From assembly GCA_043803685.1 (NCBI GenBank), contig JAZDJU010000037.1, positions 169,518-233,517 of the forward strand: a DNA stretch of 64,000 bases, written 5' to 3'. Below the pieces are notes generated by a model, which saw only the letters and a program-made list of their open reading frames with translations, ran no database searches and was not told where the DNA came from. Numbering within the stretch: position 1 is the first letter of the stretch; the number at the start of each line of letters is the position of its first letter. The DNA comes from Candidatus Omnitrophota bacterium. Lineage in GTDB: Bacteria; Omnitrophota; Omnitrophia; Omnitrophales; Aquincolibacteriaceae. Positions 12,404 to 42,732 of the stretch are shown one piece after another. The position numbers and the translations under genes were made by a program.

Positions 12404-12627
12404 AAGGCGTACGGAGTACGGTGTACGGCGAAAAAAATTTCGCGTAACGCCGTACGCACTGAACAACCGATAAAGCTTCAATGAAGTTTAGTGCTGCCCA
12501 AGTCTTTATTTCTTTTCCTTAATGGCGACTTGGACTGCACTGATTTCCGATCCATTTTAATAAAAATCAGGTGCTGTCCCAATCAACTCAAAAAAATACG
12601 GGAAGATTGGGACGCCTTCCGCCGTAC
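12404..12627. repeat. Heptamer palindrome interrupted by a four-module hairpin array (12456-12613)
   Basis: Modules gcactgaac..gtttagtgc (12456-12494), gcccaagtc..gacttggac (12496-12535), gcactgattt..aaatcaggtgc (12537-12574), gtcccaatc..gattgggac (12576-12613), separated by single T; flanked by gccgtac | gccttcc gccgtac. Confidence 0.85.
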
Positions 12628-12632
12628 AAATT

Positions 12633-12953
12633 TTATTTAACTTTCGCCCCGTCGGAAATGGGACGTTCGGGAACGACCAGGGTCAACAGAGTAGCATCCG
12701 AAGCCGCAAGAAGCATCCCTTGAGATTCGACGCCACGGATGACGGCGGGGTCCAGATTGTCGATAATGACGATCTTCTTCCCCTTCAACTGCTCCTCGGT
12801 ATAGTGAGCCCGGATCCCGGCCACGATCTGCTTGCGCACTTCGCCCACCTTAATCCCTAGCACATAGAGACGATCCGCGTTGGGGTGAGGGGTCACGCTT
12901 TCGATCTCGGCCACTTTGATGTCTAATTTCTGGAAATCTTCATAGGAAGCCAT
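12633..12953 (-). CDS. tRNA-binding OB-fold protein (MetRS C-terminal/Trbp111/CsaA-like)
   Basis: EDFQKLDIKVAEI, HPNADRLY, KQIVAGIR, NLDPAVIRGVESQGMLLAA. Confidence 0.92.
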   Translation of the reverse strand: MASYEDFQKLDIKVAEIESVTPHPNADRLYVLGIKVGEVRKQIVAGIRAHYTEEQLKGKKIVIIDNLDPAVIRGVESQGMLLAASDATLLTLVVPERPISDGAKVK

Positions 12954-13137
12954 CGTTCATCACTCCTTTTTAATGGAAATACACTCAGCTCTTGAACAAA
13001 CTGTCCCAAGCGCTCTTTGAGAAAGGCGGTATTTTATCACAAAAGAAAACCATGCAAAGAACAAACCCTTTAAGGGTTATCGGACGCATCCTTCGTAACT
13101 TCCGCTACCCATAATGCTTAGGAACACCTTGTTTCCC

Positions 13138-13165
13138 TTGATTTTCGAAGGCTTACTGCTATGAT
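13138..13165 (+). promoter_or_regulatory. Putative sigma70 promoter of the ino1 operon
   Basis: TTGATT-16 bp-TATGAT with TGn extension; GGAGG RBS before the ATG at 13224. Confidence 0.5.
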
Positions 13166-13223
13166 ATCTCGCCGTCATCTAAAAAACCCATCGTCTTCAT
13201 ATTAAATCAACCGGGAGGAATTC

Positions 13224-14339
13224 ATGGGAAAGATCAAGATCGCTATCGCCGGCGTCGGTAATTGCGCGGCTTCGCTTGTGCAAGGGATCGAGCATTATCG
13301 AGCCATTGCCAGCCGGAAACCTGAGAAGAATAAACCCATCGAGCACCTGGGTCTCATGAATTATGACATGGGCGGTTATCTCCCCCAGGACATCGAGGTC
13401 GTAGCGGCCTTCGACATCGACAAGCGCAAAGTGGGCGAACGCCTGGATATCGCGCTTGCCGCAAAACCGAATTGCGTCTGGTCTATCGGCCCTCTCCCGA
13501 AAAGCAAGATCAAGGTCGAGATGGGCAACATTCTGGATGGAGTCTCTGAGCACATGAGCGGTTATAAAGATGACCGCACCTTCCTCCCTTCCGACAAAAA
13601 ACCCTGCAACGTCGAAAAGGTTTTGAGAGAGAGCGGCGCGGAGATCCTGATCAACTATCTTCCGGTCGGTTCCCAGAAAGCCACCGAATTTTATGCCGAG
13701 GCGTGCCTGAAAACAGGCGTGAGCCTCATCAATTGCATGCCGGTCTTCATCGTCTCGAATCCGGCCTGGGCGAAGCGTTTCGAGGCCAAGCGTATTCCTT
13801 GCGTCGGCGATGATATCAAGGCCCAGATTGGCGCGACAGTCACGCACCGCACGCTCGCGAAGCTTTTCATGGACCGCGGCGTCAAGATCGACCGCACCTA
13901 TCAGCTGAACACCGGCGGCAACACGGACTTCCTCAACATGCTCAATCGCGCGCGTCTGGAATCCAAGAAGATCTCCAAGACCTCTGCCGTCCAGAGCCAG
14001 CTCGACATTCCACTCGATGAGGACAACATCCACATCGGCCCTTCGGATTATGTTCCCTGGCAAAACGACAACAAGGTCTGTTATCTCAGGATCGAGGGCC
14101 GCGGCTTTGGCGGTTTTCCTGTCACCGCCGAGATGCGCCTTTCTGTTGAGGACTCTCCCAATAGCGCGGGCTGTTCGATCGATGCGATACGCGCCTGCAG
14201 GATCGCGCGCGACCGTAAGATCGGCGGACCGCTCATCTCCATGTCGGCCTATACCATGAAGCATCCGCCCAAACAGATCGTGGATTACGAAGCCAAGGAG
14301 CTTGTCCGCAAGTTCATCCAGGGCACCTGCCCCCGGTAA
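13224..14339 (+). CDS. ino1: Myo-inositol-1(3)-phosphate synthase
   Basis: IAGVGNCAASLVQG, NYLPVGS, GDDIKAQIGAT, YQLNTGGNTDFLNM, SKKISKT, EDSPNSAG. Confidence 0.95.
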   Translation: MGKIKIAIAGVGNCAASLVQGIEHYRAIASRKPEKNKPIEHLGLMNYDMGGYLPQDIEVVAAFDIDKRKVGERLDIALAAKPNCVWSIGPLPKSKIKVEMGNILDGVSEHMSGYKDDRTFLPSDKKPCNVEKVLRESGAEILINYLPVGSQKATEFYAEACLKTGVSLINCMPVFIVSNPAWAKRFEAKRIPCVGDDIKAQIGATVTHRTLAKLFMDRGVKIDRTYQLNTGGNTDFLNMLNRARLESKKISKTSAVQSQLDIPLDEDNIHIGPSDYVPWQNDNKVCYLRIEGRGFGGFPVTAEMRLSVEDSPNSAGCSIDAIRACRIARDRKIGGPLISMSAYTMKHPPKQIVDYEAKELVRKFIQGTCPR

Positions 14340-14345
14340 CTAGCC

Positions 14346-14942
14346 ATGTCCCTGCGCGAAACCCTTTATCCAAAGGTCGAGCCGCTCGCCAAACGGATCG
14401 TTGCCTTTTTGATCGCGCAAAACATTTCCCCGATGCAGTTGACGCTCGGAGGAGCGGCCCTGAGTCTCCTCACCGGTGTCATCTACGCCAAAGGATATCT
14501 TTTCCTCGGAGGAATCATGCTTTTCATCGCCGGGGCCGCAGATCTCCTCGATGGCCTCCTGGCGCGCTCGACGGGAAAAACCAGCACCTTCGGCGCGTTC
14601 CTGGATTCGGCCGTGGACCGCTACTCCGATTTCTTCGTATTTGCGGGCCTCGCGGCTTACTTTGTTCGTAACGGCGAGATCTTCTGGTTCTTCGTCACGC
14701 TCGGCATCCTTCTCGGATGCTTCGTGGTCAGCTATACCAAGGCGCGCGCCGAAAACTTCATTAAAAATTGCGGCATCGGCATCTTCGGAAGATCGGAGAG
14801 GGTCCTTCTCCTGATCGCGGGTACGCTTGTGGCGCCGCTCCTGAAACTCGTGTTGCTGGTTCTGCTCGTGGGAACACACGTCACCGCGATCCAGCGCATT
14901 CTCCACACAAAAAAGACCCTCGCCGAAACCCCACAGGGTTAA
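14346..14942 (+). CDS. CDP-alcohol phosphatidyltransferase (putative phosphatidylinositol-phosphate synthase)
   Basis: DLLDGLLAR...FGAFLDSAVDRYSD signature, VSYTKARAE, hydrophobic; directly after ino1. Confidence 0.88.
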   Translation: MSLRETLYPKVEPLAKRIVAFLIAQNISPMQLTLGGAALSLLTGVIYAKGYLFLGGIMLFIAGAADLLDGLLARSTGKTSTFGAFLDSAVDRYSDFFVFAGLAAYFVRNGEIFWFFVTLGILLGCFVVSYTKARAENFIKNCGIGIFGRSERVLLLIAGTLVAPLLKLVLLVLLVGTHVTAIQRILHTKKTLAETPQG

Positions 14943-16274
14943 ATGGCACGCCCAAGTCTTTGCTTTCCCTTCCTTAAGGGCGACTTGGACAGCCCCAATC
15001 TCAGAAAATCTTCGATTGATAGGTATTGGGACCGCCTAGGTCTTTGTTTTCCTTGTAGGTCTTGGGACCGCGCGTCGCGTTCCTTTTTCTGGGCCTTCCT
15101 CCTTGTCTCCTTTCTAGGCTTCGTCCCTATTTCCTTGGCGGAAACAGCATCGAGCGCGGAGCTGGAAGGCGTTCTCCGGAAGATCGAGTCCCGGCATTAC
15201 CGCTGGATCGCGATCCGCGCGGATGTACTCCTCTTTTTCGCGAAAGCCGGAGATCCAAACGCCATGTGCGGCGGCGAGCTTTTGTACCAACGTCTTGACG
15301 AGCGCATGTTCCTGACCTGCGTCGACGCGAAACAGGAGCTGCTTTTCGTCTTTCGCACGTCTGACCGCCGCTTTGATCTTTATCTTCCAGGCCAAAACAA
15401 GGTCTATCACGGATCGATCTTCGACATGGAAGACTCTCCGGACATTGAAAGCCATCTAAAAGCCCGCGACCTTTACCGGGCGCTCAAACCGACCGCCGTC
15501 GACCCCCGCCGCACACAGATCGAGCGAACCAATTCCGCGATCACGAGTTTGGACGTTTATGGCCGTAACGACAGCGAGAAACTCCTGGTAAGAAAACTGT
15601 ACCTGACGCCCGAAGGGGACGTGCGCGGCGAGCTTTTTTACGATCCCAAAGGCCGTCCTGTCACCGAAATCCAGCGCTATGATTTTCGCGAACTCCGGGG
15701 CCGTAGCGGTCTTTATGATTCCGTGATCTTCCCGAAAAAGATCACGATCTTGTCTCCCGAAACAAAAAAAGGAAGCGCGATCTTCTTTACCAACGTCACG
15801 GCCTTGGATACGGCCGACCCGTTGGATTTCATTCTAAGGGTCCCTCCCGGAACGCAGGAGATCTTCCTGGATGAAAAAGATCCGCGTTTTCAACGCTCAA
15901 AATCATCGGAAAGTGAGGTCCGCCTCGCCCCCAAAGTGGGACGCTTTACTCCCTTGACGCCTGAAAAGGCTCCCAAGAAAGCCGGAACTGCTCCGCTCTC
16001 GCCGCAAAGCGCAAAGATCGCTCCTTTGCCTGCGACCGGAACCAAACCTGTTAAAGAGAACCTTCCCGCTTCCACGAAGGAAAAACCCACTGAGTTCGAG
16101 AGCCCCTCTCCTCAGAGGGAATCCATGAAGCCCTCAACCAAAGCGACGCCGCCCGAAAACCCGGATGCGGACATCGCGCCGGAAGGCCCGCCTCCGACGG
16201 AACCGTCCGCCGCCAACCCTCAAACCACCCTTGATCCGTCTGTACAACCTTCGTTAGAAATGGCCCTTTCTTAA
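14943..16274 (+). CDS. Secreted/periplasmic hypothetical protein, possibly LolA-like beta fold, with Pro/Lys/Glu-rich tail; 120-bp hairpin array inserted near the start
   Basis: Signal-like FFWAFLLVSFLGFVPISLA-ET, beta-rich core ending FILRVPPGTQEI, low-complexity C-terminus. The fold is inferred. Confidence 0.7.
   Translation: MARPSLCFPFLKGDLDSPNLRKSSIDRYWDRLGLCFPCRSWDRASRSFFWAFLLVSFLGFVPISLAETASSAELEGVLRKIESRHYRWIAIRADVLLFFAKAGDPNAMCGGELLYQRLDERMFLTCVDAKQELLFVFRTSDRRFDLYLPGQNKVYHGSIFDMEDSPDIESHLKARDLYRALKPTAVDPRRTQIERTNSAITSLDVYGRNDSEKLLVRKLYLTPEGDVRGELFYDPKGRPVTEIQRYDFRELRGRSGLYDSVIFPKKITILSPETKKGSAIFFTNVTALDTADPLDFILRVPPGTQEIFLDEKDPRFQRSKSSESEVRLAPKVGRFTPLTPEKAPKKAGTAPLSPQSAKIAPLPATGTKPVKENLPASTKEKPTEFESPSPQRESMKPSTKATPPENPDADIAPEGPPPTEPSAANPQTTLDPSVQPSLEMALS
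14950..15069. repeat. Three-module hairpin array, in-frame within the CDS
   Basis: gcccaagtc..gacttggac (14950-14990), gccccaatc..tattgggac (14992-15032), gcctaggtc..cttgggac (15034-15068), 1-nt linkers. Confidence 0.8.
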
Positions 16275-16540
16275 AAACTCTTTTTCAGGAAATATCCGGG
16301 CGTTGTCGAGCCTAAACCCTCATTAATAAACTCCTCGCGGTCCCTTTGTTTTAAAAACCATTCGAATCGTTCCGCCCTTTTTATATATTTACTGCAGACC
16401 CTCGCTTATTGTGCTAGTTTGTTATCGTTTGAGCGAAAACTTTAGAGATGCGTCCATGCCCATCCGTCTTGGCCCGCGGTCTCTGATCGTGCAACCAAAA
16501 ACAGCGCAAAGGGTGTTCCCTATCGAAAGGTGGGTTTAAA

Positions 16541-17782
16541 ATGATCGCTCAAAATCCAGGAAACTTTTGGCCGGTACTTGTTTTAGCTCTGTCCCTTTCG
16601 TTGTTCAGCGCCTGTGATCAAAAAATCAAGGCCGTGGGAGATCCAACCCAGACCCAGGGGATCACGGATACTGAAATATTGCTCGGAAACTCTTCCCCCC
16701 AGTCGGGACACGCCCAGCATCTCGGCACCCACTATCTTCGCGGGGCCATGGTTTTTTTTGAGGATCTGAATAGCCGCGGCGGTATTTTGGGAAGAAAGAT
16801 CCGTGTGATCAGTTACGATGACCAATACGATCCTTCCCATTGCGTTTTGAATACGCAAAAGCTCATAGGACAGGATAAGGTATTCGCCCTTTTTAACTAC
16901 GTGGGAACTCCCACGACCATAAAAATTTCTCCTATCGTCGAGGAATCGAAGATCCCTCTAGTGGGCGTGTTTTCGGGCGCGGATGTCCTGAGAAACCCTG
17001 TCAAAAAATATATTTTTAACATTCGCAGTTCGTATTCTATGGAAGTCGATCAAACCGTAATGCATTGCGTAGATGATCTTGGATTTAAAAAACTAGCAGT
17101 TTTTTATCAGAATGATGCTTTCGGAATCGACGTTCTCAAGGGAATCGAGACCGCATTGAAACGCTACAAACTGAAGCCGGTCGTCACGGAAAGCTACGAA
17201 CGCGGGACCCTGAATGTGGAACGCGCCGCCAAGAGCATCCTGACATCGGGCGCTGACGCGGTGATCATGGCAGGCCTCTACAGCCCCTGCAGTAAATTCG
17301 TCCGGCTTATGAAAGATGCCGGCTCCTCCATGATCTTTTTCAGCAGTTCCTTTGTGGGCGCGGAGGAGTTCGCGAAAGAACTCGGAGAAAAAGACTCTAC
17401 CGGCGTGATCATTTCACAAGTGGTCCCTCCGCCCAGCTTCGACGTGTTAAGCACCGTCAGAAATTATAAGAAGCTCAGCAAACGCTATTTCCCCGAGAGC
17501 CAGCCCGACATCGTTGCTTTGGAGGGTTTTGTCAACGCAAAGGTTATCGCGGAAGGCCTCAAAAGGGCGGGAAAGGACCTGTCGCGGGAAAAATTCGTCC
17601 AAGCGCTCGAATCCCTGCATGATTACTCCGGCGGCATTGGGAACCCGATCGATTTCAGCGAGAGCAATCATAGTGGGCTTAGTTACGTTTTTTTCACGAG
17701 GATCAAAAATGGGGATCTCGTGTTTTTTGATGATTGGCAGGAAATCAAAAACGAGATGGCCCTAGTCCCGCGTGATATTTAA
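16541..17782 (+). CDS. Periplasmic binding protein type 1 (Leu/Ile/Val-binding family), lipoprotein, copy 1
   Basis: Lipobox-like LFSAC, GITDTEILLG, GGILGRKI..YDDQYDP, VFALFNYVGTP, AVFYQNDAFG, LEGFVNAKV. Confidence 0.9.
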   Translation: MIAQNPGNFWPVLVLALSLSLFSACDQKIKAVGDPTQTQGITDTEILLGNSSPQSGHAQHLGTHYLRGAMVFFEDLNSRGGILGRKIRVISYDDQYDPSHCVLNTQKLIGQDKVFALFNYVGTPTTIKISPIVEESKIPLVGVFSGADVLRNPVKKYIFNIRSSYSMEVDQTVMHCVDDLGFKKLAVFYQNDAFGIDVLKGIETALKRYKLKPVVTESYERGTLNVERAAKSILTSGADAVIMAGLYSPCSKFVRLMKDAGSSMIFFSSSFVGAEEFAKELGEKDSTGVIISQVVPPPSFDVLSTVRNYKKLSKRYFPESQPDIVALEGFVNAKVIAEGLKRAGKDLSREKFVQALESLHDYSGGIGNPIDFSESNHSGLSYVFFTRIKNGDLVFFDDWQEIKNEMALVPRDI

Positions 17783-17891
17783 AATTAGGAGTATGCGGTA
17801 GGGCGCCCCATGGCACTCGTTTAAGTGGTTTTGGATCGCATCAAATAAGAAATAGCGCAAAGGGAATTCCCTTTCGAAAGGTGGGTGTAAA

Positions 17892-19115
17892 ATGATCGCT
17901 CAAAATCCAGGAAACTTTTGGCCGGTGCTTGTTTTGACTCTGTCCCTTTCGCTCTTCAGCGCCTGTGATCAAAAAATCAAGCCGGTGGGAGATCCGACCC
18001 AGACCCAGGGGATCACGGAAACCGAAATATTGCTCGGGAACTCTTCCCCCTTCACAGGACACGCCCAGCATCTCGGCACCCACAACCTCCGCGGGGCCAT
18101 GATTTTCTTCAATGACCTGAATAGCCGCGGCGGGATCAACGGGAGAAAGATCCGGGTGATCAGTTACGATGATCAATACGATCCGCCCCAGTGTGTTCTG
18201 AACACTCAAAAGCTCCTAGGACAGGATAAGGTATTCGCCCTCTTCAACTATTTCGGATCCCCCACCACCCTCAAAGTTATTCCGATGCTCGAGCAGACGA
18301 AAACCCCTCTGGTCGGTGTGTTTTCAGGTGCGGATTTTTTGAGAAATCCTGTAAAAAAATATATTTTTAACATCCGTGGCTCGTATCATCTGGAAACCAA
18401 TCGAGCCGTGATGCATTTCGTCGAGGACCTTGGATTCAAAAAGCTCGCGGTTTTTTATCAAAATGATGCCTTTGGGATCGACGGCCTCAAAGGAACCGAG
18501 ATCGCGCTTGCGCACTATGGTCTGAAACCGGTCGCCGCGGAAAGTTATGATCGTGGGGCCCTGAATGTGGAGAACGCCGCCGAGATCATCCGCCAATCAG
18601 GCGCGGAGGGGGTGGTCATGGTCGCGCTCTACGGGCCAGCCAGTAAATTCATTAAACTCTTGAAAGACGCCGGCTCCCCGATGATCTTCTACGTAGTGTC
18701 TCCTGTGGGGACTTCTGAGCTTGTGAAACAACTGGGGGATAAATACAGCGACGGAGTGATCATCTCGCACGTAGTGCCGTCCCCCGACCTTGACGTGTTA
18801 AGCTCCGTCCGGGAGTATAAAATGCTCAATGAGCGCTATTATCCCGAAAGCCAGCCCAACGTTGTCGCTTTGGAGGGTTATGTCAATGCCAAGGTGATCG
18901 CGGAAGGCCTCACGCGGGCCGGTAAGGATCTCACACGAGAGAAGTTCGTCCAAGCGTTGGAGTCCTTGCGTGATTACTCTTGCGGCATCGGGAACCCGCT
19001 CAATTTCAGCGCGGAGAATCATGAAGGGATCAAATCCGTCTTTTTCACAAAGATCGAAAAAGGAGAACTTGTATTTATTTCGAATTTCCGGGAAGTCATG
19101 GAAGGCAAGGTTTAG
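17892..19115 (+). CDS. Periplasmic binding protein type 1 (Leu/Ile/Val-binding family), lipoprotein, copy 2
   Basis: Collinear paralog of 16541-17782 with near-identical N-terminus and leader. Confidence 0.9.
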   Translation: MIAQNPGNFWPVLVLTLSLSLFSACDQKIKPVGDPTQTQGITETEILLGNSSPFTGHAQHLGTHNLRGAMIFFNDLNSRGGINGRKIRVISYDDQYDPPQCVLNTQKLLGQDKVFALFNYFGSPTTLKVIPMLEQTKTPLVGVFSGADFLRNPVKKYIFNIRGSYHLETNRAVMHFVEDLGFKKLAVFYQNDAFGIDGLKGTEIALAHYGLKPVAAESYDRGALNVENAAEIIRQSGAEGVVMVALYGPASKFIKLLKDAGSPMIFYVVSPVGTSELVKQLGDKYSDGVIISHVVPSPDLDVLSSVREYKMLNERYYPESQPNVVALEGYVNAKVIAEGLTRAGKDLTREKFVQALESLRDYSCGIGNPLNFSAENHEGIKSVFFTKIEKGELVFISNFREVMEGKV

Positions 19116-19225
19116 CGCCGCATGAGAATTTAAATGAAGGGGACGCGATACAGCCCTTGTGATCCTATATTTTTTTTGAGAACAAGTGCTGTTAACCCCT
19201 AAGATCAAATGGAGAACAGGACTCA

Positions 19226-22024: not shown

Positions 22025-22083
22025 GCTCTCCCGCCCTCCCGTAGGCCCGCCCCCTGAAGTGAAAAGGTTCTCAGCGAGAACTT

Positions 22084-22746
22084 TCAGTTCGCCTCGAAGT
22101 GATGGCGGACTTCCTTCCCCTGCTTCAAGTAGATGGTATCTTCGGCGATATTGTTCGAGAGATCCGCAATGCGCTCAAGATTGCGGCCGATCATGACAAC
22201 GCTTAGAGCCCGGCGGACCGTCTGGGGGTCCTTTTCCATCAACTCGGACATATCCAGATAGAGCTTGTCGTTGTAATCATCAATCTTGTCGTCGCTTTCC
22301 AGGACCTTGCGCGCGAGGTCGACATTCTCATTCATGAAACAATCCAAAGCATCCCGGACCATTTTTTTGACCGCTTCAGCCATGCGTTCCAACGGAAAAT
22401 CCATTTTAAGCGGCGGTTGCCCGATCAAGTATTGGCTTTTTTCCGCGATATTGACCGCGTGATCGCCCATGCGTTCCAGATCGGTATTGATCTTGAGGAT
22501 CATGGTGATCAGCCGGAGATCGCGGGCCATCGGTTGGAGCAGCGCGAGAAGCGTATGCCCGCTTTCGTCGATCTCGATCTCAAGCTGGTTAATGACTTTC
22601 TCGTCCTCTAGCACCGCTTTCACGCGATCCTCGGAACGCTCGACCAGCGCTTCAAAGGATTTTTCAATGGCGCCTTCGACCAAGAGCCCCATCTGAAAAA
22701 GCTTCTGCTTTAAGCCTTTAAGTTCTTCCGCGAAATGTCTTTCCAT
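22084..22746 (-). CDS. phoU: Phosphate signalling protein PhoU
   Basis: MERHFAEEL, QPMARDLR, DLERMGDHAVNIA, LERIADLSNNIAED. Start at 22746 after a GGAGG RBS. Confidence 0.95.
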   Translation of the reverse strand: MERHFAEELKGLKQKLFQMGLLVEGAIEKSFEALVERSEDRVKAVLEDEKVINQLEIEIDESGHTLLALLQPMARDLRLITMILKINTDLERMGDHAVNIAEKSQYLIGQPPLKMDFPLERMAEAVKKMVRDALDCFMNENVDLARKVLESDDKIDDYNDKLYLDMSELMEKDPQTVRRALSVVMIGRNLERIADLSNNIAEDTIYLKQGKEVRHHFEAN

Positions 22747-22765
22747 AAGTCCGCCTCCTTTTCCT

Positions 22766-22818
22766 GAGCCACGAGCCACGTCTCCCGGGCCACGTTGCGT
22801 GGACCGTGGATCGTGCAC
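22766..22818. repeat. Heptamer-built palindrome at the pstB-phoU junction
   Basis: gccacga gccacgt ctcccgg gccacgt tgcgtgg accgtgg atcgtgc. Confidence 0.8.
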
Positions 22819-22828
22819 CCGGGTTATT

Positions 22829-23581: not shown

Positions 23582-23595
23582 GATTTCCTATTCCG

Positions 23596-23648
23596 AACCA
23601 CGCGCCACGTCTCCCGATCCACGCTTCGTGGCTCGTGGTGCGTGGACC
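23596..23648. repeat. Heptamer-built palindrome at the pstB-pstB junction
   Basis: accacgc gccacgt ctcccga tccacgc ttcgtgg ctcgtgg tgcgtgg; clearly related to 22766-22818. Confidence 0.8.
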
Positions 23649-23652
23649 GCCT

Positions 23653-30560: not shown

Positions 30561-30747
30561 AGTGCTCTCCTCTGCTCAAATCGCTGATTGTATTCGAAGG
30601 TTTGTTGGTCCGAAAATAAGGGCTATCTTCTGGCCTCAGTTTATCCAAAACACCCGCTTTGTCTATGTAAAATTGGACGAAAAAAGTCTCGCAGGATGTC
30701 CTCCCCATGAAACCTTTCGCTGTGGTAAAATGCCCCGCTGAATTTCT

Positions 30748-31437: not shown

Positions 31438-31438
31438 T

Positions 31439-33217: not shown

Positions 33218-33228
33218 CGCGCAAAACG

Positions 33229-34683: not shown

Positions 34684-36112
34684 CAGGACTTCACCTGGAT
34701 ACGATAGCGAACCACGACTTCCGCGTCCTTTCCCACAGAGACATCAAAACGCAGCGTGTTCGCGTCCACTTTCTTGTAGGTATGAGAACTCGTCAGAACC
34801 TTCCAGTCCGAATAAAGAGGCTCAAGGACCCCCACCACCACGGCTTCCGCCTTGTGATTGCGGATCGTCACTTCCCATTCGGTCTCGTGCATATGGTTCG
34901 AGATGTGCTTGTAATCCATCTGAACGCGCTCGGCCACCACATCAAAAGCCTTGCCGATCTTGAGGCGCACGTTCTCATCCTTGGGGGTGTGCGGGATGTT
35001 ATCCTCCCCGATGAACTGAAGACTGCCATCGGTGTCTTTTTTGTACATCCGGACCGTCCCTTGAGGGAGCGGCATCCCGACACGATTGGCCTGGGAGTTC
35101 TTGAACTCCACAAAGACGTTCACATCCTGTTTTTGTTTCTGCCCCGGCATCGCGTAAAAATAATAATTGGGCGTACCCGAGACCAGGAATTCTTTCTTCG
35201 CTCCCACACCCGAGGCCCCCAGAAGACTGATTGCTTGGTCTGTTTGTCCTTGAGCGTTGTGCGTCTCTGCAGATCATAAATATGATATTCAAAAAAAGCC
35301 TTTTCTTCGAACTGCGGCGCCGCGGCCACGGCATCCATCATCATTTCCGCCCGCATGCCTTTCCGGGCATACAGGGGCTCACTCACGCGGTTCACATCGC
35401 CGGCGACCAGTTTCAAACGGGCGTTCCGATAGACCGTACCGCTTTGGTTATCGATCGTCACCCATCCGGAAAGATCGAGCGACTTGTCGCTCCCGTCAAG
35501 CGTTGCCACATAATCGGCTTTCCAGCTGAGATCCCCGGTCAAATAGGAAACCTCGAGCTCGTGCGCCTTCGCGCTTTTGTTGGTGAAAAGCCAGGTGAGC
35601 GTCGGTTTCGAGATAAGGTTCTCGGGGATCGAGGGAACCACCTTGGTGCCCGGATATCCCAGATAAATTTCTTTACCGATCTGGTAGATCTGTCCTTCGT
35701 TATTGCTCAGGAGCGTCGCTTCGACCTCTTCTTTTTTGCTGAGGGTCTCATCCCACCGGAGGATCTTGAGCTTTTTGCCGACGTATTTATCAAGGAGGCG
35801 GGTTTCACTGATCAGGTCATACTCGTAATTCTGATCGAGCACGGAGAAATCATTCGGGAAGTTAAGCGACCTCGCGCTCACGGTCACGGGATTTATGCTC
35901 GAGGCCACATCCATGAAACGGAGTTCCCCTTCACCGGCCGGAAGTGTCAACTTCCGGGAGTCTTTGACGAGGGCGATATTGCTATTGTAAATGGTAACCT
36001 CGATCCCTTTCTGGTCTTCGATCGTGCTTTGCTGGAGCGACACAGGCGCAGCGCCACAAACGGGCATCAGGCTCATAAGAAATAAAAAAATCCCTGCAAA
36101 GCGAACCTTCAT
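34683..36112 (-). pseudogene. DUF4139 domain secreted protein split by a 1-bp frameshift near 35231
   Basis: Two overlapping ORFs. Adding one A (CAA^ATC AGT CTT CTG) gives continuous KQTKQISLLGASGVGAKKEF. Motifs VTIYNSN.ALV, QNYEYDL, SYLT..LSWKADY, LGMPLP.G-like. Confidence 0.8.
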
Positions 36113-36147
36113 AAAACCTCCTGAATTTTGATGCTTGGAACAGAACA

Positions 36148-36594
36148 TTAAGATCTCTTGCTCCCGGATCGCTTGGAATGAAGGGGGACTCGCTCGTGGA
36201 CTTTTTTCCCGGGAAAACGGCAATGGCCTACGGATGGCTCTCCGATCCGCCAGGAAAAATAGACTCGTTGACCTTCATGTATCCCGGGAAACTCCACATG
36301 CCCTGTCTCGATGTTGCGCAAAAGGCAACCGGTGGCGAATACGGCTTCGACGTCTTTGGCCAGCTCCTCGATCGCCTCCTCCAGCGCGTGGATCCCGCTT
36401 TCGAGGCCGTCCTCTTGTTCCAAAAAACCGTGGGTTCGCTCTGCCGCGCAAACAAGCTCATGCATGAAAAGAAGATCGTGCGTGCGGGCGTAAGCTTCTT
36501 TTTTGGTCCGGAGGACTTTTAAACGCTTTTCGAGCTCGGGCACAAGCCCATCCGCTTCCTGAAGAGTAAAGATCCTTTTTTTCTTCTTAGTCAC
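36148..36594 (-). CDS. DUF2203 family protein
   Basis: IFTLQEADGLVP, GCLLRNIETGHVEFP, VYFSWRIGEP.V.H; GTG start after AAGGAGG. Confidence 0.8.
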   Translation of the reverse strand: MTKKKKRIFTLQEADGLVPELEKRLKVLRTKKEAYARTHDLLFMHELVCAAERTHGFLEQEDGLESGIHALEEAIEELAKDVEAVFATGCLLRNIETGHVEFPGIHEGQRVYFSWRIGEPSVGHCRFPGKKVHERVPLHSKRSGSKRS

Positions 36595-36698
36595 AGACCC
36601 AGCCTCCTTCTCCGTGCCCGATAAGAATACTCCCGGTCGCTCCGCAAAGCAAATTCCAAATCAGGCCCAAGACTTCCGTCTCAGGTCTACTGTCTGTT

Positions 36699-38063
36699 TC
36701 ACGGAGTGAAACTCTCGGGCGCGGCATCGGACCAAAGGGCGGGCACAAGACCGCCGCCCGTTGCCACATTGATCACACTTTCGTCGCTTAAGCGGACAAA
36801 GCCGCCCGTGTATTTTCCGCCGGCCACCAGCAAATTGAAATTGAATTTTTTGTAAATGAAGTCGAGTTTCTGGTTCACGACGTCGGGAACGGTGATCACC
36901 GGGACCGGGACCTGCTCCTGGATCACCCAGTCCTCTTCCTTCAAGGCCTTGTCCACCACCGCGTTCCAGTCGCCGTCCGGCGTCTCGCGACCGATGTGCA
37001 CCCGGCGGGAGCCGTGGCTCGAACCCGAGGGCTTCAGAACGACCGTGTCCTTCTCGTCCTTCAGGAAATCGATCAGAAAAACTTTCCGGTGACCGTAAAA
37101 ATCCTCGGCGTCGGAAAGACAGCGCGTCCACGGAAGGTGCTGGCGTTTCATTTCATTTTCGTTCTCCGTGAAGAAACGGTCGCATTCCGGTGTCGTCAAA
37201 AGTGAAAAGACAGCCTTACTCGAAGCGAGTTTTGAACGCAACGGATTGGCCATGCACACGGCCTTGTCTTTGTACGCGCGCAAGAGGTCCTGAACCTCGT
37301 CTAGCCGCTGCAGGAGTTCGTCAAAGGTCGCGCGCCGGTAGATCAGGTGCACGCGGAAGCCCTTGTGATAAAGCTTTCCGCCTTTGTACTGAAGCTCCCG
37401 GGGATCCGCGATCGTCGTTTTGTAGCCTTTGGCTTCGAAGTGGCTTTTCATGTGCTCGCACTCCGGAGCCGTTCTCGCGTGCCGCCAATCCACGATCGCG
37501 ATCTGCGGGGTTTCGTAGCCGCCGAATTCCTCGTAAACCGAAAGCAGGGTGGAAAGAACGCCTTGAATGCGTTCGCTCGCGACCAAGTGATGTTCCTCGG
37601 CGAAAGACCGGACCAGCTCTTCGGAGAGGAGCGCGAACTCGAGATGGTCGGCGTAGGCAGCGCCTACCGGAGCATCGCAATTGAACTCCAGAAGTTTCAG
37701 GCTCTCACCTTCCAGAAGCGCGTCAAAGCGGCTGAAGACAACGTGCTGCGAGTAGCCTGGATCGATCTTCACAAGCTCCTCAGCCTCGGGCGAAAGATGA
37801 AAGCGGGATCTCATCTGTGCCTCTTCAAAATAAAGACGCGCCGTTTTGTTAAGGATCTGGGAAAAAGCGGAGGCGGCGCGCTTGAGAAGGTGTTGCTGCT
37901 TGGGCGTGACGAAGAAAGCTTTGTAAAAAGCCGGGACGGTGAATCGTCCGTAGGCGAATTCCGGACTGTTGAGCTTTTCTTTGAACCGGTTCAGGGCGGG
38001 AATCGCGCGGGCTTCGTGGGCCTTCAGGTATTGATCGTACGCGTAATCAAGATTCGCGGTCAT
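36699..38063 (-). CDS. Circularly permuted ATP-grasp (glutathionylspermidine-synthase-like) peptide ligase
   Basis: SRFD..LKLLEFNCDAP.G, IADPREL.Y, LIYRR, MANP, LPWTR, VLKP, WVIQE, INVATGGG. Confidence 0.85.
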   Translation of the reverse strand: MTANLDYAYDQYLKAHEARAIPALNRFKEKLNSPEFAYGRFTVPAFYKAFFVTPKQQHLLKRAASAFSQILNKTARLYFEEAQMRSRFHLSPEAEELVKIDPGYSQHVVFSRFDALLEGESLKLLEFNCDAPVGAAYADHLEFALLSEELVRSFAEEHHLVASERIQGVLSTLLSVYEEFGGYETPQIAIVDWRHARTAPECEHMKSHFEAKGYKTTIADPRELQYKGGKLYHKGFRVHLIYRRATFDELLQRLDEVQDLLRAYKDKAVCMANPLRSKLASSKAVFSLLTTPECDRFFTENENEMKRQHLPWTRCLSDAEDFYGHRKVFLIDFLKDEKDTVVLKPSGSSHGSRRVHIGRETPDGDWNAVVDKALKEEDWVIQEQVPVPVITVPDVVNQKLDFIYKKFNFNLLVAGGKYTGGFVRLSDESVINVATGGGLVPALWSDAAPESFTP

Positions 38064-38124
38064 GACACTCTTTCAAAAATATACGGGTTGTCGGTGACGA
38101 CAAAACGTGGCCATTCTGTTCTTT

Positions 38125-38269
38125 GTCATTCCCGCATGCTTGAAGCGGGAATCCAGTCCTGGATCCCCGCACTGAACGACCTATAAAGCATCATAAGAAG
38201 TTCAGTGCTGCACTCGCTTTCATTAAAGCTTTATTGAAAGCCAGCGCGATCAATACATTCGGGGATGAC
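38125..38269. repeat. GTCATTCCCGC...GCGGGAATCCAG-type palindromic repeat interrupted by a two-module hairpin array (38169-38247)
   Basis: gtcattcccgc atgcttgaa gcgggaatccag tcc tggatcccc [79 bp] gatcaatacattcggggatgac. Removing the insert restores the ccccga..tcgggg stem. Confidence 0.85.
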
Positions 38270-38290
38270 GCAACAAACTGCTGCGTTGCG

Positions 38291-39436
38291 TCATTTCCGT
38301 TCTTCGTGCGGAATGTAATACTGCTCCTGCGGTCCAATGTATTCCGCGAGCGGTCGGATCAGACGGTTGTCCAGCTGCTGCTCGATGATGTGTCCGCTCC
38401 AACCGGCTACGCGGCTTGCGGCAAAGACCGTCGTGAAAAAATCCGGCGGGAATCCGAGCACATAAAGCACCGGCGCCGAGAAAAAGTCCACGTTGCAGGG
38501 GATCTTCTTCCGGTCCATCATGACCTTCTCAACATGCGCGGCGATCTCAAGCCAGTCCATCTTCCCCGCCTTGACGCACAGGTCGTGCGCGATCTGGCGG
38601 AACGCCTCGGCGCGTGGGTCGCGGGTCTTGTAGATCCGGTGCCCGAAGCCCATCACCTTCTTTTTTTCGTCCAAAAGCTTGTTCACATAAGCGACCGCAT
38701 TTTCCGGCTTCCCGATCTCGAGGATCATTTCCATCGCGTACTGGTTCGCCGCGCCATGGAGCTCGCCCGCAAGCGTCCCGACCGCGGAAGTGACCGCCGA
38801 ATACAGGTTCGACAGAGTTCCCGTCGTCACGCGTGCCGCGAATGTCGAGGCGTTAAGCCCATGGTCCGCCAAAAGGATCAGATAGGCATCGAGCGCCTTT
38901 TCCATTTCCGGCGTCGGTTTGGTGCCGTGCATCATATAAAGGAAATTGGCCGCATGCGAAAGGCTCATGTCCGGTTCGATGGGCTCTTTGCCTTCGCGAA
39001 GCCGGTAGAAAGCCGCGATAATCGTCGGGAAAACGCCCGTCAGGTGATACGCCTTGCGCTGGGATTCCTCGGGATTCACGATATGGGCCCGCGGATCGAT
39101 ACTTCCCATCAGCGAACACATCGTCCGGAGAGCGCTCATCGGATGAGTATGCGTGGGGAGAAGTTTCAGAACCTTCAGCGCGATCTCCGATAAAGGTCTT
39201 TGCGCCTTCAGCGTCTCCTTAAAAACCCGGAGCTCTTCGGTATTGGGAAGTTTCGCGTACCAAAGGTGATACGTGACTTCCTCGAAGTGGGATTTTTCGA
39301 CAAGCTCCCCGATGGGAAAGCCACGATAAAGAAGCCGGCCGTTCTCGCCGTCCACATCGCTTAAGGATGTCTGAGCGGCAACAACCCCTTCCAGACCTTT
39401 GACCAGTTTTGACGCGCTTGAAGGCTCTTTTTTCAT
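38291..39436 (-). CDS. gltA: Citrate synthase (short type)
   Basis: GLEGV, LLYRG, DHGLNASTF, LHGAAN, MGFGHRIYK.DPR, NVDF, RLIRP. Confidence 0.93.
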   Translation of the reverse strand: MKKEPSSASKLVKGLEGVVAAQTSLSDVDGENGRLLYRGFPIGELVEKSHFEEVTYHLWYAKLPNTEELRVFKETLKAQRPLSEIALKVLKLLPTHTHPMSALRTMCSLMGSIDPRAHIVNPEESQRKAYHLTGVFPTIIAAFYRLREGKEPIEPDMSLSHAANFLYMMHGTKPTPEMEKALDAYLILLADHGLNASTFAARVTTGTLSNLYSAVTSAVGTLAGELHGAANQYAMEMILEIGKPENAVAYVNKLLDEKKKVMGFGHRIYKTRDPRAEAFRQIAHDLCVKAGKMDWLEIAAHVEKVMMDRKKIPCNVDFFSAPVLYVLGFPPDFFTTVFAASRVAGWSGHIIEQQLDNRLIRPLAEYIGPQEQYYIPHEERK

Positions 39437-39513
39437 AGGACGATTCCTGTGTTGATCGATCGGTGAACGAATGCCGTATTATACTCATCCGAAGAAAAAC
39501 TGAAACTGCTGTT

Positions 39514-40209
39514 TTAAGGTGTTGTTGAAGCGGCTTTCCAGATGCGCACGAGGAAGATACGGCGCGGATGGATGAGGCGCCCGACGAGGAGTTGCGCGTC
39601 CCTTTCGAAGAACTCATTCTCTTCCGTCCCCGAGAGATCCTTCATCTTCAATTTTAGGGAAGAGAAGAACAGATTGGTCCTGGCCGCGATCGAAAGCCGC
39701 CTCACTCGTTCTTCGAAATAACGGACATTAACCTCTTTTTCGTCCGGCGAATCGGTTTTCTCAAAGACGATAATGAAAAAGGCTTCGCGAAAAGGCGCGA
39801 CCGTTTCCTTGTAGAGAGCCTCCCCCGGCTTATCAAAATAAATCGAAGAGGGCATGCTCAGATAGCGGGCGCCGTCGGGCTCCTGCAGGATCTTGTAAAG
39901 CGTCACACGCATTCCCACCACGGGGGCCGCGAGCTCCATCCGGAGATCCTCTCCTTCACGCGCGCCGAGCGCAAACACCTGAATAAGTTCTTCATGATGC
40001 GCCCGGTTGTTCCGGTGGACCAGCAATCGCAGAGGGCGCGTGCCAAAGCCCGACAAATCCTGGATCGTCGGCGTGACGAGCTTTCCGTCCAGATAAAATT
40101 TGGGCAGCCGCGGAATATCCTCATCCGCCATCAAGGAATTCGGGAAGCCGCCGGAGAGAGAGAAAAGCAACCCTGCCACCACCCCGCAAAAGCATCGGGA
40201 CTTTTTCAT
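39514..40209 (-). CDS. Hypothetical secreted protein
   Basis: 231-aa ORF with signal-like N-terminus, co-oriented with its neighbours; no family recognised. Confidence 0.6.
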   Translation of the reverse strand: MKKSRCFCGVVAGLLFSLSGGFPNSLMADEDIPRLPKFYLDGKLVTPTIQDLSGFGTRPLRLLVHRNNRAHHEELIQVFALGAREGEDLRMELAAPVVGMRVTLYKILQEPDGARYLSMPSSIYFDKPGEALYKETVAPFREAFFIIVFEKTDSPDEKEVNVRYFEERVRRLSIAARTNLFFSSLKLKMKDLSGTEENEFFERDAQLLVGRLIHPRRIFLVRIWKAASTTP

Positions 40210-40224
40210 TTTTGAGGCAGGGTC

Positions 40225-40758
40225 CTAGGCCCAGAGCTTCGGAAGAAGGAACGGTGTCGTTTTCTTGTAAGCGCGATAAGCGTCGCCGAAACGCTGTTCG
40301 AGCTCCTTCTCCTCAATGAGTTTGATCTCGAGAACCAAAAGAACGATCAAGACAAAAGCCGCGGCCCAGGAACCCGTCCGGTTGAAGATCACGGCCCAGC
40401 CTGACAGATACAGAAAAAAACCGAGCATCATGGGATTGCGACAATACCTGTAGGGCCCCGAAGCCAGCAGTTCCCTGGTCGGCACCGCGGGAACGGGGGT
40501 CCCCTTCCCTTTCGAGAGCTGCCAAAACACAGCCCAGATCACCCACGGAATGCCCGTCGCAAAAAAAAGAAAGCTCGCAAGGACCACGATCACACCACGG
40601 ATAAAAACCTCTTCCCCCCACAACCCACACACTCCCACGAGCACCGGCCAGCCCGCGAGAAAAAGCACCGCACCCAACACCGTTGCCACCGCCCGGTAAC
40701 CCGCCGAATACTCCCTGCCCGCCCTCGTCACCAAATACTGGATCAGCTTGTCGAACAT
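40225..40758 (-). CDS. Isoprenylcysteine carboxyl methyltransferase/PEMT family membrane protein
   Basis: GKGTPVP, GPYRYCRNPMMLG, EEKELEQRFGDAYRAYKKTTP. Confidence 0.9.
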   Translation of the reverse strand: MFDKLIQYLVTRAGREYSAGYRAVATVLGAVLFLAGWPVLVGVCGLWGEEVFIRGVIVVLASFLFFATGIPWVIWAVFWQLSKGKGTPVPAVPTRELLASGPYRYCRNPMMLGFFLYLSGWAVIFNRTGSWAAAFVLIVLLVLEIKLIEEKELEQRFGDAYRAYKKTTPFLLPKLWA

Positions 40759-42491
40759 GGTCGCGCCCTCGATGTCATTTTTGTTTCTTCTTCCAAGGCT
40801 TGAGCGCCTTGTTGCGTTCCAGCGCTAACCTCTGAAATATAAATCTGCTCAAGGGCCTGTGTTGGAAAGCGCTTAACGTCTAAAGTGCGGCCGTTTGGAT
40901 ATTTTTTAAAAAATAGCTCTTCTTAAAAGAATCTCAAAAAAACGTTGCGTCTATTTATCGTCTTCGATCTCATAAACAATACCATAAGCAGATAAATCCG
41001 GCCTCTTGGCAGGATGACGCGCATTAAAAGCCCACTTTCTTTTCGAACTCGGTCCCATGGGAAGATACTCGATGATAGCGCGGACTTTCCCTCCGGGTGT
41101 CAGTAATACACTAAGCAGCTGGTAGGTCCAAGTCCAGCCCATGTCCACAACCCCACGTTTCATCAACGCCTCGGGAGTCAGCTGAGTTTGTTTGAAAGGG
41201 ATGATCCCCTTATGGCTCGCCAACGAATCGCAAAATGCGGAACAATATTTCCTCCATTGCATTGTCGCGAAAACATGCCAGGTGATCTGCGCGCAAGCTA
41301 AAACCGCCACTATCATAAAGCCACGGACCCAGGATCGCCTTTTTTGAAATTGCGGGAAGGCCCGTAATCCCAACAAAACAAAAGTAAGCGGCACTGGTAA
41401 AAAACAGTAAAACCCACGCATCTGATAATGGGTGGCCGGATGGACCCAGCCAGGGAAAAATAAGGGAATGAATCCAAGGAAAACCGCAAAAGGGCAGAAA
41501 ACCCAGAACGAAAAAGAAAAGATCCTTCTACCAGATTTACCCGCCATGAAGGGCATCGCTGACAAAAATAGGATCGCCACGAGCGACAAAAACAACATGG
41601 GGTGTTTTCCCAAGAGACCGAGATTGATTACTGAAAAAAAACCGTTCTTGAAACCCTCAAAGTTTTGTGGGCAGGAAGGCGCGATAATCGATTGCATCGC
41701 GATCAATGCGCCGGTGAAAAACCAAAACGCAATAAAGATCCAGATCGCTCGGCTGAATGGATTTTTTTCTTCGCGGCAGGATCGCCAAATCGCGAGAGCT
41801 CCCAAGATCATTCCAAGGTAGGCCATGGATTCATAGGTCCGAAAGCTCACAAAAGCCATGACGGCGAATATGGACGCTTTCCAGAAATTAAAACTCTCAC
41901 AGAAAAGAATGAAAAACAGTAACGCCCAATATAAGGACACCATCAGAAGCCCTTCAGCGACAATCACCATGGACCCATTCATAGAACCCGCAAACAATGA
42001 GATCAGCGGAAACAACAAATAGCGGAGATTCTTTCGTCCCGCCGCCCAGGCACAAAGCCATAAACTCAAAAATAAATGGAGAAAAAGAGGCGCTGAAAAC
42101 AAGAAAGACAAGGTCGGCAGGTTTCGAATCCCAGATTTAATCGCCCAAAAAACGGGCATTTGCAAAAAACCTTCTCCAAACTCCCTGGAAGCCCATGACA
42201 AGTAGGGCTTCTGATCCCTAAGAAGCCGTACGAACCACCATGACCCGTCAGCATACCAAGCTCGTCCGGAAAAGATGGCGAAAAGATCCGCGCACAGATA
42301 AAAAGTGATTCCTCCCAGTAAGGCCGCAAAGACCCAGGGATGTTGCGTCATAAAGCTTCGGCCCAGCACCGTCGCTAACGCCCGGGAACCCGCCGAATAC
42401 TCCCTGCCCGCCCGCGTCACCAGATACTGGATCAGTTTGTCGAACATGGTCGCGCCCTCGATGTCATTTTTGTTTCTTCTTCCAATGCTTG
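40673..42491. repeat. 130-bp imperfect direct repeat pair (40673-40802 and 42362-42491)
   Basis: Both copies contain the 3' end of the small CxxC gene, the spacer and the first ~29 codons MFDKLIQYLVTRAGREYSAG..; offset 1689 bp. Confidence 0.92.
40951..42447 (-). CDS. Polytopic membrane protein, possibly GT-C-fold glycosyltransferase; N-terminus borrowed from the duplicated methyltransferase start
   Basis: Many hydrophobic segments, R.WYADG motif after the first TM, visibly more AT-rich. Alternative native start MTQHPW at 42351. Confidence 0.7.
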   Translation of the reverse strand: MFDKLIQYLVTRAGREYSAGSRALATVLGRSFMTQHPWVFAALLGGITFYLCADLFAIFSGRAWYADGSWWFVRLLRDQKPYLSWASREFGEGFLQMPVFWAIKSGIRNLPTLSFLFSAPLFLHLFLSLWLCAWAAGRKNLRYLLFPLISLFAGSMNGSMVIVAEGLLMVSLYWALLFFILFCESFNFWKASIFAVMAFVSFRTYESMAYLGMILGALAIWRSCREEKNPFSRAIWIFIAFWFFTGALIAMQSIIAPSCPQNFEGFKNGFFSVINLGLLGKHPMLFLSLVAILFLSAMPFMAGKSGRRIFSFSFWVFCPFAVFLGFIPLFFPGWVHPATHYQMRGFYCFLPVPLTFVLLGLRAFPQFQKRRSWVRGFMIVAVLACAQITWHVFATMQWRKYCSAFCDSLASHKGIIPFKQTQLTPEALMKRGVVDMGWTWTYQLLSVLLTPGGKVRAIIEYLPMGPSSKRKWAFNARHPAKRPDLSAYGIVYEIEDDK

Positions 42492-42732
42492 CATCCCTTT
42501 TCGACCAGCGCCGGGGGGATATCCTTGTTCGCGCCCTTCCCGTGGATCTCGAACCAGGTGCAGATCCCCAGAAACGTATTTTCGAAATCTCTCCGGTAAC
42601 CACAGTCCCAACACATATTATCCCGCCTTTGCGGCGGCGGGATGGGGCAGTCCAAGTCGCCTTTCATAAATGAAAATAAGGACTTGGACGGTCCCAGCAA
42701 GTCGCGTTTGATTCTTGGGTTGAGCTGCTCAT
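42464..42732 (-). pseudogene. 60-aa Cys-rich (CxxC..C..C) protein interrupted by an 86-bp hairpin array
   Basis: AGGAG RBS, ATG at 42732, TGnTATAAT upstream (42791-42799). Removing 42605-42690 gives MSSSTQESNATCWDCGYRRDF...GCKHWKKKQK. Confidence 0.7.
42605..42690. repeat. Two-module hairpin array
   Basis: gtccca..tggggc (42605-42648, contains atcccgcc..ggcgggat) and perfect gtccaagtc..gacttggac (42650-42689), the same module as 12496-12535 and 14950-14990 in reverse orientation. Confidence 0.8.

What the first reader, a model, noticed from the sequence alone, without database searches (positions are those of the whole stretch)
12456..42690. Interchangeable ~40-bp hairpin modules assembled into variable head-to-tail arrays at four loci: a candidate miniature mobile or array-building system
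Seen: arrays of 4 (12456-12613), 3 (14950-15068), 2 (38169-38247) and 2 (42605-42689) modules. Each module is 35-44 bp with roughly 6-13-bp inverted arms around a mostly AT-rich loop. Modules are joined by exactly one base, so junctions read G(G/T)(A/G)C-N-G(C/T)(C/A)(C/T). Module types are reshuffled between loci with loops partly conserved: CCAAGTC..GGCGACTTGGAC at 12496, 14950 and (reversed) 42650; GCACTGAAC..ATAAAGC..GTTYAGTGC at 12456 and 38169; CCCAATC..ATTGGGAC at 12576 and 14992. At all four sites removal restores an intact host sequence, so these are insertions. Known parallels are REPINs/BIMEs (RAYT-associated) and Rickettsia palindromic elements, but I do not recognise this combinatorial cassette architecture. 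Inference: a trans-acting HUH or other recombinase adds modules stepwise at GGAC-N-G-like sites. No such enzyme is visible in this window.
Basis: partly seen in the sequence, partly recalled or inferred. Interest (0 to 1): 0.85.

Follow-up and report, generated by a model that had tools for sequence, protein, structure and literature searches.

The report
Nesting two-hairpin miniature mobile elements
The arrays are real: they are copies of an ~80-base, gene-less mobile DNA made of two interchangeable hairpin halves that inserts into short matching sites and into its own middle, in one group of uncultured Omnitrophota bacteria; the enzyme that moves it is unknown.

Summary
Observation confirmed; interpretation partly. 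The genome holds about 130 such loci and at least 12 module families; related modules occur in 18 of 19 congeneric genomes. The mobile unit is not the single 40-bp module but a doublet: two hairpins joined by one base, each family with a fixed outer and inner end. 67 of 68 two-module arrays point outward, and longer arrays read as nested brackets. Orthologues show empty, filled, re-invaded and partly deleted states. Doublets are flanked by a repeated core whose length depends on family: YR, YNR or YTAR (66, 76). The element's central base predicts the host-side core base (p<1e-4) and, in one family, the core length (12 of 12); the pairing switches repeatedly on a weakly resolved tree. Best reading: non-autonomous elements moved in trans through a folded single-stranded circle. 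No enzyme was found among the Y1, IS110, IS701, DDE, integrase, RT or GIY-YIG genes checked. The scan noted an 84-base two-hairpin Omnitrophota repeat on other DNA (e1-798490, e1-1044567), probably one of these families (not verified).

The parts
12456..12613 (.). Locus 1: nested array S<[P>U>]partner; outer doublet inserted at a C^G site (2-bp core CG), inner P-U doublet inserted at its central junction (all junction bases t)
   Evidence: 14 orthologous intergenic regions lack this array
12456..12494 (-). module S (outer end left)
   Evidence: HMM 40.3 bits
12496..12535 (+). module P
   Evidence: HMM 36.5 bits
12537..12574 (+). module U
   Evidence: HMM 36.9 bits
12576..12613 (.). partner of S, not scored by my family models
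   Evidence: sequence; inferred from the bracket grammar
14950..15032 (+). Locus 2: P-Q doublet, ancestral in part of the genus, in frame after the start codon of the host gene (core CCG in orthologues)
   Evidence: 7 of 16 orthologues empty, 4 with a plain doublet, 4 with a second nested doublet, 1 deletion remnant
15034..15068 (+). internally deleted second P-Q copy; whole insert 120 bp, frame kept
   Evidence: inference from sequence
14943..16274 (+). host ORF (443 aa, no Pfam hit) carrying the locus 2 insert as a 40-residue N-terminal addition
38125..38269 (.). CGTC-type REP-like palindrome that hosts locus 3
   Evidence: empty form in the G003 orthologue and 6 empty copies in this genome
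38169..38247 (-). Locus 3: S-R doublet, central base t, 2-bp core CG
42605..42689 (-). Locus 4: P plus X (Q variant with another inner hairpin) doublet, core CAG, inside a small CxxC-motif ORF (42464-42766, minus strand)
   Evidence: 9 of 11 aligned orthologues empty, 2 filled (one with two tandem doublets)
17768..17800 (+). decayed Z module
52304..52333 (+). partial R module

Best explanation
A family of non-autonomous ~75-85-bp elements. SHOWN: each is a left and a right 35-45-bp hairpin module (8-9-bp stems, AT-rich loops) joined by one base; modules have fixed outer and inner ends; doublets insert at short Y(N0-2)R cores that end up on both sides, including the central junction and loops of other doublets, which builds nested arrays and new left/right combinations; the central base and the inner terminal base are coupled to the host core. 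INFERRED: an enzyme encoded elsewhere (most likely an ssDNA cut-and-rejoin enzyme of HUH type, or an integron-integrase-like one) binds both hairpins on one strand. It excises a circle that keeps one copy of the core. That circle folds as a dumbbell in which the central junction faces the core, and re-inserts at a site matching that core. The elements are selfish passengers, tolerated between genes and in frame inside genes.
For: Bracket grammar: 67 of 68 two-module arrays outward, 7 (), 4 (()), 1 among 92 arrays in G000. Identical flanking cores in 23 of 40 P/Q-type doublets (shuffle mean 7.9, max 17) and 10 of 14 A-Z/E-A doublets (mean 3.1, max 9). Stems change sequence but stay paired (P: 485 of 544 arm pairs Watson-Crick, with A-T, T-A, G-C and C-G alternating at positions 5-8), so structure rather than arm sequence is kept. 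Wobble asymmetry puts both hairpins on one strand (A.C vs G.T counts: P 42:11, Q 56:6, A 19:4, S 11:1, Z 4:8). Modelled circles form both stems in 35 of 42 P-Q on that strand vs 13 of 42 on the other. Central base vs host-side core base: MI 0.98 bits, p 5e-5; inner Y vs host R: p 1e-4 (31 P-Q in G000), matched in 63 of 68 non-redundant copies. R-S: centre c goes with a 3-bp core 6 of 6, centre a/t with a 2-bp core 6 of 6. At least one nested insertion with a known host (L077) has a left core base that differs from the host. IS200/IS605 chooses cleavage sites by DNA-DNA pairing near hairpins on ssDNA (PMC8266576 introduction; PMC10055086 passages).
Against: No enzyme found. No bias to the G-rich strand (61 vs 47) or majority coding strand (56 vs 52), and only a weak sense bias (33 vs 18), whereas replication-coupled ssDNA transposition should show one. 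Centre and core are complementary only in the C/G classes; t/t and a/a classes are identical, not complementary, so dumbbell pairing does not explain all classes. A-Z and R-S fold both stems equally on either strand. Most wobble counts sit at arm position 2 and are inherited, so they are not independent. Arm covariation can also arise by template switching. IS608-type insertion makes no duplication, while here cores are repeated. Polarity labels were set by me per family from the commonest doublets, so the two-module count is partly circular. The CTA class is inflated by the search pattern. Copies are old (nearest copies at most 95% identical, medians 82-89%), so mutation can mimic carried bases.
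Confidence: 0.5

Rival explanations
1. MITEs of a DDE transposase: the doublet is an internal-deletion derivative with two ~40-bp terminal repeats, moved by dsDNA cut-and-paste with true 2-4-bp duplications; nesting reflects targeting of end-to-end junctions.
For: Short repeated cores such as YTAR; A and Z loops are homologous and inverted (mean alignment score 3.8 vs -3.3); MITEs are defined by TIRs plus target duplication and act in trans (PMC3184786 passages); no replication-strand bias.
Against: Outer arm sequences vary freely between and within families while pairing internally; duplication length tracks the central base; P and Q show no clear inverted homology; no module-like ends on DDE_Tnp_1, IS701-type or rve genes, and no DDE_3 gene in G000.
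Confidence: 0.2
2. One reading: single modules are added one at a time at junction-like sites, as in a cassette array.
For: t/t/t and a/a/a runs of junction bases fit repeated single insertion with a 1-base duplication; one apparently single E module flanked by CTA/TAG; many left/right combinations.
Against: 82 of 97 multi-module arrays are pairs; balanced nesting in longer arrays; orthologues gain two modules at once; c/g/c arrays do not fit direct duplication.
Confidence: 0.07
3. No dedicated enzyme: elements spread through an RNA intermediate or host repair (template switching, microhomology-mediated insertion), with cores acting as microhomologies.
For: Weak sense-strand preference (33 vs 18; A-type 13 vs 3); at locus 4 the host flank resembles the Q arm over several bases; G000 has a reverse transcriptase; no transposase found.
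Against: Precise ends and a constant 1-bp junction (101 of 117); family-specific core lengths; restriction to one clade; the RT has no modules nearby and looks DGR-like (label recalled).
Confidence: 0.13
4. Host-selected regulatory hairpins (terminators, RNA stability or protein-binding sites) that only look mobile.
For: Mostly intergenic or at gene edges (115 of 127 loci); loops partly conserved.
Against: Presence/absence at orthologous sites; both orientations; in-frame copies deep inside long ORFs; a 97%-complete congener has none; no Rfam match in the window.
Confidence: 0.04

Closest known systems
IS200/IS605 elements (IS608) and their ORF-less PATE derivatives
   Same: Two hairpin ends on one strand; gene-less minimal forms; target motif covaries with an internal sequence (PMC10055086 passages, PMC8266576 introduction).
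   Different: Here the hairpins abut with one base between them and reach the insertion boundary; the core is repeated on both sides and is 2, 3 or 4 bp; at least 12 exchangeable ends; self-nesting at the centre; no matching TnpA found.
REPINs / BIMEs with RAYT (TnpA-REP)
   Same: Doublet is the replicative unit, singlets are remnants, higher-order clusters, mostly extragenic, trans-acting enzyme (PMC3116915 passages).
   Different: No GTAG or CGTC tag; the halves are different families with 20-25-nt AT-rich loops and do not need to pair with each other; defined repeated cores; RAYT-like genes in these genomes carry other repeats.
Prokaryotic MITEs (Correia, RUP, ERIC) and the modular BOX element
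   Same: Small, non-coding, flanked by short duplications; BOX is modular (modularity recalled; review PMC3184786, passages).
   Different: Ends are self-complementary hairpins with freely covarying arms, not conserved TIRs; duplication length tied to the central base; no parent IS found.
Rickettsia palindromic elements; cyanobacterial SDR elements (SDR recalled, paper not held)
   Same: Tiny palindromic inserts, in-frame copies inside genes, nesting in other repeats, enzyme unknown.
   Different: No sequence comparison made; the doublet grammar is not something I saw described for them.

Membership tests
REP/REPIN | conserved GTAG (or CGTC) tetranucleotide at the hairpin foot | tested here: not met
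   family consensus and flanks; the CGTC-type repeat at locus 3 is the host, not the element
REP/REPIN | doublet is the replicative unit | tested here: met
REP/REPIN | cognate RAYT gene flanked by the repeats | tested here: not met
   3 Y1 loci of G000 and 48 of relatives (best-per-genome plus 20 chosen, not all listed) scanned; Y1 genes whose flanks were visible have unrelated terminal repeats (output partly cut); the Y1 domain beside a P-Q doublet lacks the HUH and catalytic Tyr and its orthologues lack the doublet
IS200/IS605 / PATE | two subterminal hairpins active on one strand | tested here: inconclusive
   strand asymmetry for P-Q (35 vs 13 of 42), none for A-Z or R-S
IS200/IS605 / PATE | no target duplication; fixed 4-5-nt target with guide pairing | tested here: not met
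   2-4-bp cores on both sides; coupling to an internal base exists but is not complementary in all classes
IS200/IS605 / PATE | ends shared with a tnpA-bearing element | tested here: not met
   7 IS200-like loci of relatives show no module
IS200/IS605 / PATE | circular ssDNA intermediate | not testable with these tools
   no sequencing run was listed
MITE of a DDE insertion sequence | target-site duplication | tested here: met
   (duplication versus carried core not resolved)
MITE of a DDE insertion sequence | conserved terminal inverted repeats | tested here: inconclusive
   A/Z loops inverted and homologous, R/S weakly, P/Q not; terminal arms vary
MITE of a DDE insertion sequence | ends match an autonomous IS | tested here: not met
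   MAGs often lack IS copies, so absence is weak
IS110/IS1111 derivative | IS110 transposase with matching ends | tested here: not met
   none in G000; 7 loci in 5 of 20 genus genomes, no module hits
Integron cassette array | attC R boxes and an adjacent integron integrase | tested here: not met
   no GTT/AAC box in the consensus ends; no module within 1.5 kb of 10 tyrosine-recombinase matches
Known structured RNA | Rfam match | tested here: not met
   0 matches in the window at gathering thresholds

The most novel reading that the evidence does not exclude
An undescribed recombinase acts on ~80-nt single-stranded dumbbells in which the stems may have any sequence and the bases at the central junction set the sequence and length (2, 3 or 4 bp) of the target core. 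This would be a minimal DNA-guided insertion system with exchangeable halves that builds nested arrays.
Probability: 0.2. Interest if true: 0.85.

Novelty: new variant of a known kind. Interest (0 to 1): 0.55.

Why it matters
How tiny palindromic repeats spread in bacteria is an open question: the REP dissemination mechanism is stated as unresolved in PMC8266576, and CGTC repeats lack a known transposase (PMC3733652). This family has unusually legible rules: fixed polarity, nested brackets, core length by family, and a centre-to-target coupling. These make sharp predictions for an assay once an enzyme is found. It also adds in-frame peptides to host proteins and makes up about 11.5 kb of this genome. 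Without the enzyme it remains a descriptive, clade-restricted repeat family.

Tried and rejected
Enzyme hunt, all negative. G000 families: Y1_Tnp 3 genes, IS110 0, DDE_3 0, tyrosine recombinases 10 matches, serine 2, RT 1, GIY-YIG 5, DDE_Tnp_1 3, rve 3. None has module-like ends; one GIY-YIG gene lies about 200 bp from an array. Relatives: Y1 (30, 31, 58, 62; modules lie 200-900 bp from five of these genes, which have their own repeats), IS701-type (82, 84; prompted by a recalled YTAR target), IS110. ORFs between arrays less than 2.6 kb apart in G000 look like ordinary genes. 104 of 160 representative ORFs next to arrays in relatives were scanned with Pfam: no transposase, one GIY-YIG inside another repeat context; 56 were not scanned. 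A metagenome scan for unpaired A ends gave 4 hits: 2 A-Z doublets, 2 apparently chance. Viral contigs: 3, 0 and 0 hits, no module found in the three. Subtraction against the module-free congener G013 left 1215 proteins, 347 after filters; the output was cut and no candidate was singled out or tested. No sequencing run was listed, so no reads were laid. The idea that all doublets are inverted homologues holds only for A-Z and weakly R-S (64). A consistent side for carried core bases was not shown. A degenerate pattern search across the family was too loose to read. Literature searches listed no description of this family; the Omnitrophota genome preprint 10.64898/2026.06.07.730766 has 0 occurrences of palindrom, inverted repeat, MITE or intergenic in its main text (42; supplements not seen). 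The cyanobacterial SDR paper was not held. PMC3337134 passages added nothing. A recalled likeness to Neisseria Correia ends was not tested.
Full report
Observation. The four arrays are present as described. The window lies on contig C37 of a 2.89-Mb, 91%-complete assembly; earlier notes call it Omnitrophota, and most named records carrying a module motif are Omnitrophota. A strict search found 53 module pairs separated by one base, against 0, 1 and 1 in shuffles. Clustering and HMMs gave families A, Z, E, P, Q, R, S, T, U, V, later W and X. They yield 279 hits at 134 loci, and 101 of 117 close neighbours are exactly 1 bp apart. A later parse gave 274 modules in 152 arrays, merged to 127 loci and 11.5 kb. 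Rfam finds nothing in the window.

The unit is a doublet. Of 97 multi-module arrays 82 are pairs, and most singles have a divergent partner or are decayed. I gave each family an outer and an inner end from its commonest doublet. Then 67 of 68 two-module arrays in G000 point outward. Of 92 arrays, 79 are balanced: 67, 7 (), 4 (()) and 1. Twelve longer ones are unbalanced, mostly where a module is unscored or interrupted. In relatives 77 of 86 pairs fit; most of the 9 misfits look like pieces of longer arrays. The two-module count is partly circular; the nested longer arrays are the real test. Window locus 1 reads S[P U]partner. Doublets also insert into module loops and into unrelated REP-like repeats.

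They are insertions. Locus 1: 14 orthologous regions lack the array, and two carry independent R-S doublets nearby. Locus 2: of 16 orthologues 7 are empty, 4 have P-g-Q (84 bp, in frame), 4 have a second doublet nested inside, and 1 has a deletion remnant; two of the nested forms break the frame from the first ATG. Locus 3: the G003 orthologue has the host palindrome without insert, and six empty copies exist in G000. Locus 4: 9 of 11 aligned orthologues are empty and 2 filled. By my crude ORF calls, 79 of 127 loci are intergenic, 36 overlap a gene edge and 12 lie inside ORFs; the three deep ones add 81 or 84 bp.

Boundaries. Counting each outer terminal base as target, the same short core lies on both sides: YTAR for A/Z/E (11 of 26 arrays), YNR for P/Q types (30 of 58), and CG (6 of 13) or CNG (5 of 13) for R/S; many misses are incompletely parsed or mutated. 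For clean doublets: 23 of 40 P/Q-type (shuffle mean 7.9) and 10 of 14 A-Z/E-A (mean 3.1); R-S at 3 bp is uninformative (4 of 11 vs 4.6). The central base predicts the host-side core base (g with c 12, t with t 9, a with a or t 3 each, of 31; p 5e-5). The inner terminal base of P predicts the host R beyond the far end (28 of 31; p 1e-4) (63 of 68 with relatives, where the CTA class is inflated by my search pattern). In R-S the centre predicts core length 12 of 12. The classes are clustered but not single clades: the g/c class needs 11 changes, at least 5 forced by well-supported branches, on a tree with only 10 of 65 branches supported. Among nearest-neighbour pairs both bases change together in 22 and one alone in 11, but one copy is in about 11 of these pairs. 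The coupling is therefore more than simple inheritance, but its rule is not uniform: complementary for C/G, identical for t/t and a/a. I leave that unexplained.

Structure. P arms take many sequences yet 485 of 544 pairs are Watson-Crick; wobble-compatible mismatches favour one strand for P, Q, A and S and the matching strand for Z. Loci 3 and 4 fold with z of -3.5 to -4.1; loci 1 and 2 only -1 to -2. Modelled circles fold at -7 to -13 kcal/mol against about 0 for shuffles, with both stems in 35 of 42 P-Q on the favoured strand and 13 on the other; A-Z and R-S show no strand difference. There is no replication-strand bias and a weak sense bias. No two doublets in G000 exceed 95% identity, so activity here is old or error-prone.

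Range. A P-Q junction pattern is found in 23 of 301 phylum genomes: G000, 18 of 19 congeners, G028, G036, G080 and one hit in G060; the reversed control is zero. A composite query adds G081 and three weak matches. G013, same genus and 97% complete, has no hit in 1.49 Mb.

Mechanism. An 80-bp double-stranded circle is hard to bend (established knowledge), stems are kept by pairing, and target choice is tied to bases at the central junction. I therefore favour excision of a single-stranded circle that folds as a dumbbell and re-inserts at a matching core (0.5). The nearest chemistry is that of HUH transposases, which act on ssDNA hairpins and choose sites by DNA-DNA pairing (PMC8266576, introduction read; PMC10055086, passages). 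Against it: repeated cores, no strand bias, and no enzyme after checks of Y1, IS110, IS630, IS701, other DDE, tyrosine and serine recombinase, RT and GIY-YIG loci (see Tried and rejected). A DDE-MITE origin (0.2) and enzyme-free spread (0.13) stay open.

Comparison. It works like a REPIN or PATE (PMC3116915 and PMC3733652, passages) but fails their membership tests: no GTAG/CGTC tag, no cognate RAYT, and a repeated core. It also lacks a parent IS. Nine literature searches listed no description; subscription journals and supplements were not seen. The scan's own notes describe an 84-base two-hairpin Omnitrophota repeat with a three-base target on other DNA. That is probably P-Q, but a sequence look-up returned nothing, so it is unverified. 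Verdict: real, new variant of a known kind, interest 0.55.

Noticed in passing
window 42464-42766 (-): The insert shifts the frame of a small CxxC-motif ORF, but the module arm restores the C-W-D-C codons and an in-element ATG is in frame; the same arm change is in G004 and G007.
   Followed up: partly
window 38210-38247; G000 C31:71401: R modules whose loop or whole body is inverted relative to the family consensus, suggesting loop inversion between the arms.
   Followed up: partly
window 37900-38500 orthologues (L005-L023): The intergenic gap after citrate synthase holds a different small repeat family in almost every relative; G036 has a tandem P/U-like array there.
   Followed up: no
L001, L003, L028-L056, L261-L280: Many RAYT-like Y1 genes in this family are flanked by gene-specific terminal inverted repeats, like the TIRYTs of PMC3733652.
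   Followed up: partly
L002 1399-2670; L269-L271: A Y1_Tnp domain lacking the HUH and catalytic Tyr, fused to a C-terminal part in relatives (422-426 aa) and split by a stop in G000; looks domesticated.
   Followed up: partly
L252 (G000 C24): Reverse transcriptase beside a small ORF resembling a DGR accessory protein (label recalled).
   Followed up: no
L255 1400-1760 (G000 C40): A 78-aa GIY-YIG gene between two tRNA-like copies, the upstream one interrupted by a palindrome.
   Followed up: no
G000 C75:1763, C75:19161, C31:147126, C40:81994, C69:7298; L104: A longer (~55-bp) right-hand module with an inner hairpin pairs with A/E modules; not modelled.
   Followed up: no
G000 C98:21307, C117:49326, C108:5475: In-frame 81-84-bp doublets deep inside long ORFs, one of over 5,000 codons.
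   Followed up: partly
window 17715-17761: A further isolated ~47-bp palindrome next to a decayed Z module.
   Followed up: no
L073, L201, L305: Tandem near-identical runs of P-Q doublets (up to at least four), pointing to a second, tandem-duplication route of array growth.
   Followed up: no
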